DNA from: Gekko japonicus
Lineage: Eukaryota
Length of the DNA stretch: 64,000 nucleotides
Direction of reading: 5' to 3'
Assembly (NCBI RefSeq): GCF_001447785.1
Contig: NW_015173153.1
Location: 39,920 to 103,919, forward strand
The notes under the pieces were generated by a model. It made no database searches and was not told where the DNA came from. It saw only the letters and a program-made list of their open reading frames with translations. The stretch's first letter is position 1. Every line of letters begins with the position of its first letter. A program made the translations under genes and the position numbers. Below, one piece after another: positions 8,864-64,000 of the stretch.

Positions 8864-9860
8864 CCGGGGTGGCCAAACTTGCTTAACATAAGAGCCACAT
8901 AAAATAAACATCAGACATTTGAGAGCTACAAGACATGAACAAATATTACAGACATGTTTTTATTGAAAAATATGCAAATTTGCTTTTTATTAACATTAAA
9001 TGATACTGCCAAAAATAAAAACGAAAGGGGTAAAACAGATATTGATAATGGTATTTATTGGTCCAATGATATTTATTTGTTTGCTAATGATATTTATTTG
9101 TCTAAGAGAGAGGTGGAAAGAGAGAATGAAAGAGGTGGGAATAAAGAGAGAGAGAGAGAAAACAAATAGATGGAGGGAGGGAGGAAGAGAGAGAGAGAGA
9201 AAGAAACAAAGAAAGAAAGCAAATAGATGGGGGGAGGGAGGATGGAAGAAAGAGAGAAAGATGGAAAGAATGAAAATGGAAAGAAAGGAGAGAGAGAGAA
9301 TCAGAAACAAAGAAAACAAATAAATGGGGAAGGAGGGGGAGATAGGAAAGAAGAGAAAGAGCAAATAGATGAGGGAGGGGAGGAAGGAAGGAAGAGAGAG
9401 AGAGAAAGAGAAAGGAAGGGGGAGAGAGAGAGAGAGAAAGGTGAAAAGAAAGAGGTAAAAAAAGCAAATGGATGGGGGAGGGATGGAGGAAGGGGGAAAG
9501 AAAGAAAGAGAGAGATATGTGGAAGGAAAGCAAATAAAGGGGGGAAGCTGGAAAGAAAGCAACTTTAAATGTGTTCTCCAACCCCCACCCCCGCACACAT
9601 CCCCCACGCTAGCTGACTTGGCTTGGAGAAGGGATTTAAAGAGACAAATGCTTTCTTCAAGCTGGTGAGCGGAGCCACAGGGCGGGGGCTTGGAGAATGC
9701 CTTTTAAATGTGTTCTCCAAGGCCCCCCCCCCCCATGTCCTTGCTGCCACACCAGCTTGGCTTGGAGAACGGATTTAAAGAGACAAATGCCTTCTCTAAG
9801 TAAGCCAGCCAGCTGGTGTGGCGGTGTAGTGGGGCTTGGAGAACACATTTAACTTTAGAT
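8864..9860 (+). mobile_element. Truncated Charlie-like non-autonomous hAT element with a long internal purine-rich (GA) tract and subrepeats
   Basis: Starts ggggtggccaaactt; GA-rich tract at ~9105-9560; repeated ttaaatgtgttctccaa and ttggcttggagaa..gatttaaagagacaaatg; no second TIR found. Confidence 0.65.
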
Positions 9861-10269
9861 GGGGAGGGAGGGAGGAATCTTGTTTCTCAAGATGAAGGAA
9901 TAATCCAGTTTGCTCAACGGAATAGGACCCCAATCCCCAGCAAATCCTATGGACAAATGATAAAAGGAGCTCTGAACCAGCATTCATACTCAGTGTATGC
10001 TTCAACACACTTCACAGACATTGTTCACTTCCTCGATGAATTTGAAACACAAAGCAGAAATGAAAGACCAAAAAACATGCATGAAACACACAGTGCAGCA
10101 TACAAAAAAGGGAAGAGGATATGGTAATCAGACGGGGGAAATGAAGAATAGAATACTGTTCTTGTGTAGGCTTTTCTCTTTGGAAGCTTTGGTTATGGGT
10201 CGAAGTTGTCAATTTTAATGGGGAAAAGAGTAAGCTCTATTTTGGACTTAAGTGACATAAAGAAAAACA

Positions 10270-11085
10270 ACAAAGCTTGAGTCCAATAGCACCTATATGA
10301 CCAACAATTTTTATTTAAGGTGTAAGCTTTCATGCACAAGCACACTTCCTCAGACAAATTGAAACAAAATTTCTTCAAGCCTTACATACAGGAAGATGGG
10401 GGGAGTGGAAGTGTCAGGAAGGACCAGTCAGAGTTAAGATGCATAAGCGAAGTTGAGATTGAATCAAGGTGGCATGATCAATGAATGGCAGCAAATTAGC
10501 ACACAAATGCTAACAAATAGATGTGAGAACAAAGCTTGAGTCCATCAGCACCCCCAAGACTAACCAAGCTCAGCCCTGGGTACATGTGAGAACAGAGAAA
10601 CTCTGCATGTGTAAATGCACACTTCTTCAAATATAAAGAAACAGATTTCCTCAAATATTACATACAGGAATGGGGGTTTACTTGCCAGGAGGAGCTAATT
10701 AGAGTCAAGATGCATAAGTAACAATAAACACAGAGCAATAAACACAGATAATATTGGAATAACACGTTTGGTAAGACATGCAAATAGCAGCACATTGGCA
10801 TACAGATAATAAAGGAGTTAACAACAGGTGAGAAAAGTTTGAGTCCAGTGGCACCTTTAAGACCAACAAAGTTTAATTTCTGGGTATAAGTGAGAAGTGA
10901 GTGACTTAGCGTGCATAGTGAGATAAGAAGCCAATATCTCTGTTAAGCCCTGGGAGTTCCATAACTTTTCAGAATCTCCCCTTCCAGTCTGTTTCTGAAA
11001 CTGAAATGTTCTCCTACAGGGCACTCAATGGGGGACCTCAAAGTAGCTGTTTTATTGCAAAGGAATTTCAGAAACCAACAACTGA
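10270..11085 (-). mobile_element. Penelope-like element remnant: tandem pseudo-LTR units plus GIY-YIG C-terminal ORF pieces with an internal inversion
   Basis: Unit starts 'aaagcttgagtcca..agcacc..agac.aac' at ~10272, ~10531 and ~10835; minus-strand FRNRLEGE and PGLNRDIGFLSHY; plus-strand GHSMGDLKVAVLLQRNFRN from 11019. Confidence 0.8.
10321..10356 (-). ncRNA. Minimal type I hammerhead ribozyme motif (Penelope-associated)
   Basis: Minus strand reads UGU-CUGAGGA-A-GUGUGC-UU-GUGCAU-GAAA-GC-UU-ACA: CUGANGA and GAAA cores, stem II with wobble pairs, palindromic AGCU stem III, 3-bp stem I. Confidence 0.6.
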
Positions 11086-13631: not shown

Positions 13632-16180
13632 AGATGCATGGGATAGAGCAGGTAGAGAAAGAAATACTTTTCTCCCTTTCTTACAATACAGGAACTCATG
13701 GGCACTCAATGAAATTGCTGAGCAGTCAGGTTAGAACAGATAAAAGCTGGTTGGTCTGAGGTCCTAGCTGGTTACGACCAATTGTTTAGAATGATTTGGT
13801 CTATAACAGCTCTGCCACAGGGCAGACCAAACACTAGGGAATGGGACATTGGCTGTGAGGCATTTACAAGCTACTTCACGGATAAAGTCTTATCGCTTCG
13901 CCGCGACCTCCCCGCCCCAGTTGAAACAGTGAATCAGCTTGAGGCCCCAAGCACGTCTTCAGTCTCGGTTTTAGATCATTTCAGCCCACTCAGCCTGGAG
14001 GAAGTTGACAGATTGCTCTTGACTGTACATCTAACCACATGCAGCCTTGATCCGTGCCCTTCCTGGCTCATTAAAGCAGGCCATGAGCGGTTTCGAGGTG
14101 CCCTAAGGGAAATTATCAACAAGTCCCTCTTAGAGGGGCTGTTCCCGGGGGCACTCAAAGAAGCGATGCTCCACCCACTCCTAAAAAAAACAACTCTGGA
14201 CCCGGTGGAATTGGCGAATTACCAGCTTGTCTCCAATTTGCCCTATTTGGGCAAATTAATAGAGAGGCTTCATGGATGACACTTCCATGTTAGATCCCTT
14301 CCAGTCCGGCTTTCACCCAGGACATGGGATGGAGACAGCCCTGGTCGCTCTGACTGACGATCTCTGGAGGCATCTGGATTGGGGCAGTTTGGCAGTACTG
14401 TTGTTGTTGGACCTGTCGGCTGTGTTTGACACAGTCGACCATCAGTTGCTGCTTCACTGCCTCACCGACTTGGGCTTGCCTTGCAATGACTTGCTTCCTT
14501 TCTCCAAGGTTGGGGACAAAGGGTGGCACTAGGGAAGCAGCTGTCCAGGAGACACCCACTGGAGTGCGGAGTGTCTCAAGGGGCAGTGCTCTCCCCGATG
14601 CTATTTAACATCTATATGTGCCCCCCTTGCCCAGATACCCCAGAGCTATGGACTGGGATGTCACCAATATGCTGATGACACCCAGCTCTATCTGATGTTG
14701 GAAGTCCGGTTGACCTCCAGTCCTGAAGATCTAGACCGGGCATTACAGGCCATGGCTGGTTGGCTAAAGCTGAGTCGGCTGAAACTGAATCTGGCAAAGA
14801 TGGAGTCCTGTGTGTGAGCTGGGGCAGTGCACAGGTGGGCACTCCCGATCTTCGGTGGGGCACCACTGGTGCCAATGCCGGAGGTTAGGAGCTTCTGAGT
14901 GCTTTTGGATGCCTCCTTAACAATGGAGGCCCAGGTAGCAGCCACTGCTAAGTTGGCCTTTTACCATCTTCAGCTGATTAGGCAGTTGGTTCCCTTCCTC
15001 GACCGCAACGACCTAGCCACAGTGATCCATGTGACGGTCACCTCAAGACTAGACTACTGTAACGCTCTCTACATGAGGCTGCCCTTGTTGCAAATTCAAA
15101 AGCTGCAGCTAGTGCAGAATGTCGTGGCCAGGCTGCTGATGGGCTTACCTAGATGGGAGCACATCCAGCCTGTGCTGAAGGCCCTGCACTGGCTGCCAAT
15201 AGCATACCAAATTCGCTTCAAGGTGCTGGTGCTTACCTTTAAAGCCCTATATGGCCAGGGTCTGACATACCTAAGGGACCACCTTTCCCCACGTATACCC
15301 CAGAGAGCACTGTAGTCGGGGTCACAGAACCAGTTGACCTCCCGGGCCCCAAGGATGCCAGGCTCGCTGTGACGACGGCCAGGGCCTTTTCAGTGGTGGC
15401 TCCTTATTGGTGGAATGAGCTCCTGGAAGAGATTAGGGCCCTGCAGGATCTCCTACAGTTCCACAGCGCCTGCAAGACGGCGCTCTTCCACCGGGCCTTC
15501 GACTAGGAGCCGCCCCCACTATTACCATCAATGAGTCCGGCCCTCAGCTTTAACATCTGGCTCACACCATCAAGTGACTCAGGATGACACTGAGCCATAA
15601 TTCAGCAGTTGTAGACATCTCTAGCACACCACCACAAGCAAATAACTGTATAACTAATAGCACTTTATGATTTTAGGAATTTATCTGTATTGTACTGTTT
15701 TACAATGTTTTATGGTTTTATTGGCAATTGGTGCCAATGCTGTAAGCCGCCCTGAGCCCACTCGCGGGGAGAGTGGGGTATAAATTGAATTAATAAAATA
15801 AAAAAATAAATAATAAAAGGAAGTACTTATTCACCCAAAGAGTGATTAGCGCATGGAAATCATTGCCACAGGAGGTGGTGGCAGCTACAAGCATGGACAG
15901 CTTCAAGAGGGAATTAGATAAACATATGGAACAGAGGTCCATCAGTGGCTATATCCACAAGGTATAGATAGGAATGCTCAGTCTGGGGCAAGTGATGCAC
16001 TGTATTCTTGGTGCTTGCAGGGGGCAACAGTGGGAGGGCTTCTAGTGTCCTGGACCCACTGCTGGACCTCCTGATGGCACCTGGTATTTTTGGCCACTGT
16101 GTGACAGAGTGTTGGACTGGATGGGCCTTTGGCCTGATCCAACTTTGGCTTCTCTTATGTTATGTTCTTATGTTCTTATG
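13632..16180 (+). mobile_element. CR1 LINE 3' fragment, split by an L2 insertion (13632-13746 and 15820-16180)
   Basis: RT C-terminus (RTHGHSMKL..VRTDKRKY.FTQRVI..W.SLPQEVV) reads through across the insertion; 3' tail (TTATGTTC)n. Confidence 0.85.
13747..15812 (+). mobile_element. 5'-truncated L2 LINE with intact 3' end
   Basis: RT motifs DLSAVFDTVDH, QYADDTQLYL, SRLDYCNALY, LHWLPIAYQIRFKVLVLTFKAL; 3' end tgtaagccgccctgag...(AATA)n; flanked by ataaaag at 13740-13746 and 15813-15819. Confidence 0.92.
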
Positions 16181-40663: not shown

Positions 40664-41276
40664 TAGGGTTGTCAGCCCACTGCTGGTGACCCCCAGGATA
40701 CTGACCCCATGACATCATTTCCAGTTGAAGACCCAGCAGTGATGTCACAGCCCTCTAACAATGCTCTAGGAATTCCATAAATCATTATGGTGAAGACCAC
40801 AGAGATTATTGAAATTCCTAGAGCATCTCAGGAGATTGTGGTGTTACTTTCAGGATTTTCTCTGCAAATGACATCATGGTGTCAATGACACCATTTCCTC
40901 CACTTAACCACTACACCAGTTTGGTGTAGTGATTAAGTGTATGGACTCTAATCTGGGAGAACCAGGTTTGAGTCCCCCCTCCTCCACTTACACCTTCTGG
41001 ATGACCTTGGATAAACCATAGTCCTGGCAGAGCTGTTCTTGAAAAAGGGCAGTTTCTGTCAAGAGCTCTCTCAGCCCCACCTACCTCACAGGGTGTCTGT
41101 TGTGGGGAGGGGAAGGGAAAGGTGTTTGTAAGCTGCTCTGAGACTCCCTTGGGTAGTGAAGGGTGGGGTATAAATCCAATATCTTCTCCTCCTCCTTTTC
41201 CTTTCCATTTCCAAAATGATCACCTTGGGTACAACAGTGGGAGATTGCGTGCACCACCTAGTATGTAGCAGCCCTA
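40664..41276. mobile_element. TAGGGTTG-type hAT MITE hosting a Squam3 SINE
   Basis: Ends tagggttgtc / gcagcccta; TSD gtagcaaa / gtagtaaa. Confidence 0.65.
40916..41204 (+). mobile_element. Squam3-like (Ther1-derived) SINE, near full length
   Basis: ccagtttggtgtagtg.ttaag head with A/B-box-like motifs; ctctcagccccacctacctcacagggtgtctgttgtgg core; CT-rich tail; TSD ccatttcc. Confidence 0.88.
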
Positions 41277-54283: not shown

Positions 54284-54544
54284 AGAAGAGAAGAGATTGG
54301 ATTTATACCCCACCCTTCATTTCCCAAAGGAGTCTCAAACAGCTTACAATCCCTTTCCCTTCCTCTCCTCACAGCAGACACCCTGTGACATAGGTGGGTC
54401 TGAGAGAGCTCTCTCAAGAACTGCCCTTGAGACAACAGCTCTGAAAGAACTTATGACTGACTCAAGGTCACTCCAGCAACTGCATGTGGAGGAGTGGGGG
54501 ATCAAACCCAGTTCTCTCCTAACTACTACACCAAACTGGCTCTC
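54284..54544 (-). mobile_element. Squam3-like SINE
   Basis: Antisense of the 40916 copy; ends ctacaccaaactggctctc. Confidence 0.88.
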
Positions 54545-63704: not shown

Positions 63705-64000
63705 GAGAGCCAGTTTGGTGTAGTGGTTAAGTGTGTGGAGCAATGGTCCCTCTAAATTGTGGAGTCTTGTGAGCAAAAATTCTATTTTGTGAGCAATTTG
63801 GCTACTACATAAAATAGTTTGCTCTGGAGCCATCTTTCCTGAGCTAAGATAAAAATGTGTGAGCCGGAGGCTAAAAAAAGTCTGAGCTAGCTCACACTAA
63901 CTCATCTTAGAGGGAACACTGGTGTGGACTCTAATCTGGGAGAACCGGGTTTTATTCCCTACTCCTTCATATGTAACTGCTGGATGTCCTTGGGCAAGCC
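63705..64000 (+). mobile_element. Squam3-like SINE head interrupted by a hAT MITE; runs off the window
   Basis: gagagccagtttggtgtagtggttaagtgtgtgga | MITE | ctctaatctgggagaaccgggtt. Confidence 0.85.
63741..63921. mobile_element. hAT MITE (CAGTGTTCCCTCTAA-type TIR)
   Basis: TIR caatggtccctctaa / ttagagggaacactg; TSD gtgtggag / gtgtggac. Confidence 0.88.

What the first reader, a model, noticed from the sequence alone, without database searches (positions are those of the whole stretch)
10270..10890. Tandem ~260-300-bp Penelope pseudo-LTR array with a minimal hammerhead ribozyme (retrozyme-like architecture)
Seen: three diverged head-to-tail unit starts (~10272, ~10531, ~10835), and the spacers also align (ttacatacaggaa.., agag.taagatgcataag, gtgagaa). 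On the minus strand, unit 1 (10356-10321) reads UGU CUGAGGA A GUGUGC UU GUGCAU GAAA GC UU ACA. Both catalytic cores are intact, stem II still pairs (using G-U wobbles), stem III is the palindrome AGCU, and stem I is UGU/ACA. Unit 2 has a damaged core (UUGAAGA, no GAAA), and unit 3 breaks off at the motif. Known: Penelope-like elements carry minimal type I hammerheads that cleave as dimers via palindromic stem III, and tandem hammerhead repeats of this size in metazoans (non-LTR retrozymes) can yield circular RNAs. Inference: a fossil of a self-cleaving, possibly circle-forming lizard retroelement RNA. Only one ribozyme here still looks foldable, so this locus itself is probably inactive.
Basis: partly seen in the sequence, partly recalled or inferred. 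Interest (0 to 1): 0.7.

Follow-up and report, generated by a model that had tools for sequence, protein, structure and literature searches.

The report
Penelope element end, one decayed hammerhead
This is the broken-off end of a common Penelope-type jumping gene; its three repeats are shared by other copies of that gene and only one of them carries a self-cutting RNA motif, which is predicted to be dead here, so it is ordinary and likely not a circle-making ribozyme array.

Summary
The three repeats and the hammerhead letters are really there, but this is not a retrozyme array. Window 10269-11079 is the 5'-truncated 3' end of an abundant Penelope-like retrotransposon. Its upper end encodes the last codons of the GIY-YIG endonuclease, and a near-full-length relative carries RT, a Neptune-type cysteine linker and GIY-YIG. 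Other dispersed copies share the whole three-unit block at about 85%, while the units are only about 70% alike, so the repeats are an inherited 3' UTR, not a local array. Only the terminal unit has a hammerhead. Unit 2 lacks GAAA in 34 of 34 copies because its 3' half duplicates the ORF end, joined inside stem II; unit 3 joins the ORF. The family motif is genuine (1,788 exact genome matches, control 0; one compensatory pair in stem I), but this copy has three stem II substitutions and is predicted not to fold. I found no sign of cut-site 5' ends or circles. The scan noted decayed Penelope hammerheads elsewhere in this genome before. New member of a known kind; interest low.

The parts
10269..11079 (-). 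Whole insertion: 5'-truncated 3' end of a Penelope-like (likely Neptune-clade) retrotransposon; sense is the minus strand
   Evidence: 10269-10962 matches L002, L017, L027 and L028 end to end at 85%; fixed end at 10269 and variable upper ends across copies; ORF remnant up to 11079
10269..10323 (-). Terminal segment downstream of the ribozyme cut site; ends at the family's common 3' end without the optional tail of about 35 nt
   Evidence: Alignment of 53 copies; tail motif seen in 28 of 90 pattern-sampled copies
10321..10356 (-). Minimal type I hammerhead motif, the only one in the block; predicted cut between 10324 and 10323; stem II weakened by substitutions at 10336, 10335 and 10332
10357..10530 (-). 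Spacer of unit 1 (5' part of the pseudo-LTR)
   Evidence: Aligns with the unit 2 spacer
10531..10612 (-). Unit 2, 3' part: a duplicate of the ORF-end plus unit 3 sequence, standing where a hammerhead 3' half would be
   Evidence: Aligns better with ORF end/unit 3 than with unit 1 in 8 of 8 copies tested, e.g. 55 vs 32 in the window copy and 121 vs 75 in L047
10613..10630 (-). Half-hammerhead of unit 2 (first core and 5' strand of stem II); the duplication junction lies at about 10616-10612
   Evidence: 0 of 34 copies have GAAA after stem II; alignment
10631..10833 (-). Spacer of unit 2
   Evidence: median 85.2% to the same unit in 30 other copies
10834..10905 (-). Unit 3: a copy of about 55 nt of the post-cut segment plus a short linker, directly after the ORF stop; no hammerhead
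10906..11020 (-). Remnant of the GIY-YIG endonuclease C-terminus with internal deletions; stop codon at 10908-10906
   Evidence: Matches L061, L062 and L063 ORF ends at 85-100% in pieces and translates to the same C-terminal peptide
11017..11079 (+). Inverted piece of the same endonuclease ORF at the 5' junction
   Evidence: 95-100% to L061, L062 and L063 in the opposite orientation

Best explanation
This is the 5'-truncated 3' end of a Penelope-like retrotransposon whose three repeats are shared by other dispersed copies; it was likely inserted by the element's own RT and endonuclease, and its single hammerhead is predicted to be inactive. Shown: the upper end is GIY-YIG coding sequence, relatives carry RT, a CX4CX2C linker and GIY-YIG, and only the terminal unit has a full hammerhead. 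Inferred origin of the repeats: in an ancestral master element a short pseudo-LTR end came to lie right after the stop codon (unit 3), and the segment from the ORF end to loop II of the hammerhead was then duplicated, likely by a template jump at the ACAC letters shared by the ORF end and stem II. That gave unit 2 only half a ribozyme from the start. Inferred insertion: reverse transcription began at the family's fixed 3' end, ran about 750 nt into the endonuclease ORF and stopped with a small deletion and inversion. In the active element the hammerhead would have worked as in other Penelope-like elements, trimming precursor RNA weakly, as a dimer through AGCU or with help from the element's protein (from the literature, untested for this family). 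Since insertion the copy has drifted 6.6% from its subfamily.
For: Dispersed copies match the whole block at 85%; each unit is 85-91% (medians) like the same unit elsewhere but only 61-81% like its neighbour in 24 copies. L062 holds pLTR stub, N-terminal ORF, RT (RVT_1, E 9.4e-05) and endonuclease upstream of the same 3' UTR; the L063 ORF end scores 0.96 with GIY-YIG clusters. Unit 2: GAAA in 0 of 34 copies, 3' half closer to the ORF end in 8 of 8. Family hammerhead: 1,788 exact matches, control 0; stem I pair 2.2-1.2 is G-C in 39 and A-U in 26 of 78 distinct rows. Window copy: stem II -0.2 vs -5.5 kcal/mol, active dimer -0.1 vs -10.7. Penelope-type insertion signs: inverted piece upstream in 44 of 90 sampled copies, optional tail in 28 of 90, as described in PMC8557442 and PMC11167929.
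Against: The Pfam hits are below the curated cut-offs (RVT_1 22.6 vs 29.6 bits; GIY-YIG E 0.052). No intact full-length master was found: L062 is broken, lacks unit 1 at its 3' end and has internal duplications. The Neptune assignment rests on the linker motif, not on a tree. The template-jump origin is inferred from sequence alone. The covariation is essentially one change between subfamilies; stem II shows almost none (1 both-sided change), and 'pairs with a change on both sides' did not beat shuffles (485/500). Copies were chosen by likeness to the window, which favours its own subfamily. No clear target-site duplication was found (only 6-mers in an A/C-rich stretch).
Confidence: 0.9

Rival explanations
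1. A decayed non-LTR retrozyme array: every unit once held a hammerhead, and the transcript was cut into unit-length RNAs that circularised.
For: Unit length 259-303 nt is in the reported range of 150-450 bp (PMC7229834); head-to-tail units; unit 2 keeps the first core's C in 7 of 34 copies; pLTR-derived retrozymes are reported in 4 of 5 reptile genomes (10.64898/2026.07.22.740005).
Against: GAAA is absent from unit 2 in 34 of 34 copies, and the sequence there is an ORF-end duplicate. The block is fused to a GIY-YIG ORF. Of 34 distinct places read from the genome-wide search for paired 3' halves, 2 hold two full motifs and both look like sister families.
Confidence: 0.04
2. The repeats are stacked ends of successive Penelope insertions into the element's own 3' UTR (partial tandems) that became fixed in the master, rather than one template-jump duplication.
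For: Units 2 and 3 end at about the same letters as the family's tail-less 3' end; partial tandems are typical of these elements, and PAc cuts its own ORF-pLTR junction in vitro (PMC11167929); unit 3 resembles a sister family's end that follows a full hammerhead. This likely explains unit 3 and is compatible with the best explanation.
Against: It does not by itself explain why unit 2 carries the ORF-end linker in place of the hammerhead 3' half.
Confidence: 0.3
3. The unit 1 ribozyme at this locus is still active and cuts a host transcript.
For: Both cores and the UH site are intact here, which holds for only 35 of 79 aligned copies.
Against: Stem II is predicted not to form; the G10.1-C11.1 pair that PMC4209133 calls highly conserved is G-U here; there is no second hammerhead in the block; minimal hammerheads showed no cleavage as monomers (PMC4209133); no host Pfam domain among 145 of the 169 window ORFs of 80 aa or more, which does not exclude an intron.
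Confidence: 0.03

Closest known systems
EN+ Penelope-like elements of the Neptune clade with min-HHR in the pseudo-LTR (Cervera and De la Pena 2014, PMC4209133; Craig et al. 2021, PMC8557442)
   Same: RT then cysteine linker then GIY-YIG; minimal type I hammerhead with short stem I, an unpaired base before stem II, G10.1-C11.1 in the family and a small palindrome at stem III; mostly single truncated copies; inverted 5' pieces; optional tail
   Different: The 3' UTR has an internal duplication that leaves a half-hammerhead in unit 2. I did not find this described in two paper searches, but did not see the supplements or Repbase.
PAc / Poseidon_Ac of Anolis carolinensis (Frangieh et al. 2024, PMC11167929)
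   Same: Reptile Penelope-like element, hammerhead near the pLTR-ORF junction, two 3' ends about 35 nt apart, no reads ending at the cut site
   Different: PAc is Poseidon clade and expressed; this family has the Neptune-type linker and its copies are old (about 85% alike)
Metazoan non-LTR retrozymes (Cervera and De la Pena 2020, PMC7229834; Li et al. 2026, 10.64898/2026.07.22.740005)
   Same: Tandem units of a few hundred bases related to a pLTR
   Different: Retrozymes are non-coding and have a type I hammerhead in consecutive units; here one of three units has it and the block is fused to an ORF

Membership tests
EN+ Penelope-like element | Single ORF with RT and C-terminal GIY-YIG endonuclease | tested here: met
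   In family copy L062 (broken frames): RVT_1 E 9.4e-05, below cut-off; L063 ORF end 0.96 to GIY-YIG clusters; the window holds the last GIY-YIG codons
EN+ Penelope-like element | Pseudo-LTR at both sides of the ORF, with hammerhead | tested here: met
   L062 has a 5' stub matching window 10270-10337 that runs into the ORF, and the 3' UTR after it; full hammerhead in unit 1 of other copies
EN+ Penelope-like element | 5' truncation with inverted copies and an optional 30-40 bp tail | tested here: met
   44 of 90 with an inverted piece; 28 of 90 with a tail motif
Neptune clade | CX2-5CxxC linker between RT and endonuclease | tested here: met
   CX4CX2C in L061, L063 and L064 translations; motif as given in PMC8557442 passages, shared with Nematis
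Neptune clade | RT phylogeny groups with Neptune | not tested
   No reference set of Penelope RTs was fetched and no tree was built
Minimal type I hammerhead (min-HHR) | CUGANGA and GAAA cores, UH site, stems I and II, palindrome at 15.2-16.2 | tested here: met
   Family: 86.9% of cells paired, stem I pair G-C 39 / A-U 26; 1,788 exact matches. Window copy keeps the cores but has a weak stem II
Minimal type I hammerhead (min-HHR) | Self-cleavage as dimer or with protein | not testable with these tools
   Needs an in vitro assay; even for intact copies the computed active dimer (-10.7) is far above the best cofold (-28 to -32 kcal/mol)
Non-LTR retrozyme | Complete hammerhead in at least two consecutive tandem units | tested here: not met
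   GAAA in 0 of 34 unit 2 copies; unit 3 has no motif
Non-LTR retrozyme | Non-coding, non-autonomous | tested here: not met
   The block is continuous with the GIY-YIG and RT ORF
Non-LTR retrozyme | Accumulates as unit-length circular RNA | tested here: inconclusive
   Ordinary RNA-seq of an organism not shown to be this species; back-joints are explained by unit 3/unit 1 likeness; no RNase R or small-RNA data

The most novel reading that the evidence does not exclude
Unit 3 is the fossil of a cDNA made from ribozyme-cut RNA: it resembles a sister family's end, its likeness begins within 3 nt of the hammerhead cut site and ends at the reverse-transcription start, and it was captured into the master's 3' UTR. 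That would be a genomic trace of in vivo cleavage by a Penelope hammerhead, and the later half-ribozyme duplicate was carried through several subfamilies.
Probability: 0.08. Interest if true: 0.45.

Novelty: new member of a known kind. Interest (0 to 1): 0.15.

Why it matters
As it stands it matters little: one of likely thousands of decayed ends of a known class of retrotransposon. It is a useful caution that a tandem of pseudo-LTR units with one hammerhead can mimic a retrozyme. The family's master seems to have spread with a single full hammerhead and a half one in its 3' UTR, which fits reports that hammerhead cleavage is not needed for insertion in vitro (PMC11167929). Only a shown link between the cut site and insertion ends would bear on the open question of what Penelope hammerheads do.

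Tried and rejected
Rfam scan, E up to 10: no hammerhead family. TRF: array not called. Fourth unit below 10272: rejected. 5' ends at the cut site: 6 of 90 pattern-sampled copies end within 1 nt of it, against about 3.6 expected from the 65 ends spread over -46 to +7, so no peak; that extension under-measured long copies (L092 and L134 are longer by BLAST), and the sample mixes sister families. Younger arrays with all cores: 122 same-strand pairs of 3' halves 235-320 nt apart (100 listed); 40 loci, 34 distinct places, were read, 20 of them picked by hand; 2 hold two full motifs; other spacings were not searched. Sequencing runs: no RNA holder listed. Three raw RNA runs (3-12% of each read) and one contig set of an organism not shown to be this species: family reads on both strands, no place where many molecules begin or end, no depth on the flanks; these libraries are poorly suited to cut ends or circles, so this is not evidence of silence. 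Reads that 'go back' about 560 nt looked like circle junctions but are explained by single pLTRs whose end fits unit 3 better than unit 1 (loose ends). PDB sequence search with the L062 ORF piece: nothing below E 0.28. Protein comparison of the window ORF stub failed on a stop codon; one search answered it. Target-site duplication: none convincing. Host gene search: only two RT fragments among 145 of 169 ORFs. No covariance model was built.

Full report
Observation. The three units start at 10272, 10531 and 10834 and align well above shuffled controls (unit 1 vs 2: 112 against a maximum of 50 in 300 shuffles), at 70.9% identity. Rfam has no matching hammerhead model at E up to 10.

It is one copy of a dispersed family. 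A search of the genome (2.49 Gb) with unit 1 gave 4,188 first-look candidates, 40 scored, with full-length matches at 82-89%; units 2-3 gave 3,286 candidates, 40 scored, 80-88%. Four of the 29 other loci match 10269-10962 end to end at 85%. The end at 10269 is fixed and the other end varies, so the sense strand is minus and copies are 5'-truncated. I aligned 53 loci (64 fetched, 11 dropped as repeats of the same place). Each unit is closer to the same unit elsewhere (medians 87.4%, n=46; 85.2%, n=30; 90.7%, n=23) than to its neighbour (60.9-80.8% in 24 copies). The repeats therefore existed, already diverged, in the master element.

The family is a protein-coding Penelope-like element. L062 carries a 5' stub matching window 10270-10337 that runs into an ORF, then RT (RVT_1 E 9.4e-05, below the curated cut-off), then the endonuclease and this same 3' UTR. 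The L063 ORF end scores 0.96 with GIY-YIG clusters, where the Pfam family is on 23-56% of members. The CX4CX2C linker fits the CX2-5CxxC motif of Neptune and Nematis (PMC8557442, passages); no tree was built. The window copy itself continues past unit 3 into the last endonuclease codons (stop at 10908-10906, pieces to 11020) and ends with an inverted ORF piece at 11017-11079. In 90 copies sampled by an exact 30-mer (the first 90 listed of 314), 44 have an inverted piece upstream and 28 a tail motif, both Penelope traits. At least 3 of these 90 reach units 2-3 without a break.

Only one unit has a hammerhead. In unit 2, none of 34 copies has GAAA after stem II, 1 has a strict CUGANGA and 7 keep its first C. 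What follows the stem II loop is a duplicate of the ORF end and unit 3; it aligned better with the ORF end than with unit 1 in all 8 copies tested. The junction lies at about 10616-10612, where the ORF end and the 3' strand of stem II share ACAC. I infer a duplication, likely by template jump, that made unit 2 a half-ribozyme from the start. Unit 3 is a post-cut segment of about 55 nt right after the stop codon; it resembles the end of a sister family that follows a full hammerhead, and its likeness begins 3 nt before the cut site. One cut site per block cannot release unit-length RNA.

The family motif is genuine. A degenerate pattern for the intact motif has 1,788 exact matches, control 0 (sister families included). 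In 79 motifs (44 of the 53 aligned loci that had the span, and 35 of the 90 sampled copies that reached far enough, 3 repeats dropped) 86.9% of cells pair, and stem I pair 2.2-1.2 is G-C in 39 and A-U in 26 of 78 distinct rows. Against over-reading: this is about one change between subfamilies, stem II hardly covaries, and the number of pairs with two-sided change did not beat shuffles (485/500). Only 35 of 79 keep both cores and the UH site, and the CpG at 11.1-12 has decayed both ways.

This copy is predicted to be dead. It differs from its subfamily majority at 45 of 685 positions (6.6%), three of them in stem II. Stem II computes to -0.2 kcal/mol against -5.5 in L015 and L024, the active dimer to -0.1 against -10.7, and in 160 nt of context the hammerhead pairs have probability about 0. 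Even for intact copies inactive cofolds are far more stable, in line with the low activity of minimal hammerheads (PMC4209133) and the protein-assisted cleavage of PAc (PMC11167929).

Tests of the retrozyme and cleavage ideas. Paired 3' halves 235-320 nt apart occur 122 times. Of 34 distinct places read, 2 hold two full motifs (L168, L186), both apparently sister families; many others are short satellites without a full core. 5' ends do not pile up at the cut site (6 of 90 within 1 nt). RNA lays showed family reads on both strands with no pile of ends, and the back-joints are mapping effects; the organism is not shown to be this species, so this is weak.

Comparison and verdict. It works like, and by the features tested is a member of, the EN+ Penelope-like elements with a minimal hammerhead, likely Neptune clade. 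It is not a non-LTR retrozyme: two defining features were tested and not met. Papers seen: PMC4209133 parts 1-2 of 4 (abstract, results, discussion); 10.64898/2026.07.22.740005 parts 1-3 of 5; PMC11167929 parts 1-2 of 4; PMC8557442 and PMC7229834 12 passages each; others only as search listings. No supplements were read; those of PMC4209133 and of the preprint may already show this reptile family. The half-ribozyme duplication was not found in two searches, which is no proof that it is undescribed. Hammerhead numbering and the CpG-decay reading are from my own knowledge. Earlier notes of this scan on other Penelope hammerheads in this genome agree in kind and were not checked. Interest 0.15; new member of a known kind.

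Noticed in passing
L186:300-900 (G000:C6715, about 313300-313900): A true tandem of about 84-nt units, each with a hammerhead-like motif of a sister family; of 7 units read by eye one is fully intact, one has an insertion after GAAA and the rest are damaged. Closer to a retrozyme-type array than the window locus.
   Followed up: partly
L168:1418-1855 (G000:C1714): Two 147-nt ends of a sister family, 94% alike and 291 nt apart on the same strand, both with intact hammerheads.
   Followed up: partly
L155, L160, L175, L176, L177, L189, L193: Minisatellites of 42-109 nt made from Penelope ends, up to 21.8 copies at 100% match (L175); none has a full hammerhead by the motif scan.
   Followed up: partly
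L062:2258-7260: Near-full-length family copy with 782-nt and 735-nt internal duplications at 99-100% identity in the RT region (possibly an assembly artefact) and a short repeat inserted in the ORF.
   Followed up: partly
Alignment A1: Sister families have C at the cut position (16 of 79 rows) where the window's subfamily has U (60 of 79). The C11.1-G12 step is a CpG and has decayed both ways (CG 27, TG 25, CA 24), as expected for neutral copies.
   Followed up: yes
window 9563-9852: Cluster of short direct and inverted repeats, arms up to 24 nt at 96%, next to a purine-rich tract at 9100-9560; likely another repeat element.
   Followed up: no
window 14263-14814: Two reverse-transcriptase fragments on the plus strand (RVT_1, E 8.5e-07 and 1.7e-05), likely an old LINE.
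   Followed up: no
window 40915-41200, 54290-54516, 63926-64000: Copies of the short repeat that is inserted in L062, 80-87% identity.
   Followed up: no
window 55842 (-), 16717 (+), 5877 (-): Among 7 further loose core-motif hits in the window; none matches this family's pLTR; likely chance.
   Followed up: partly
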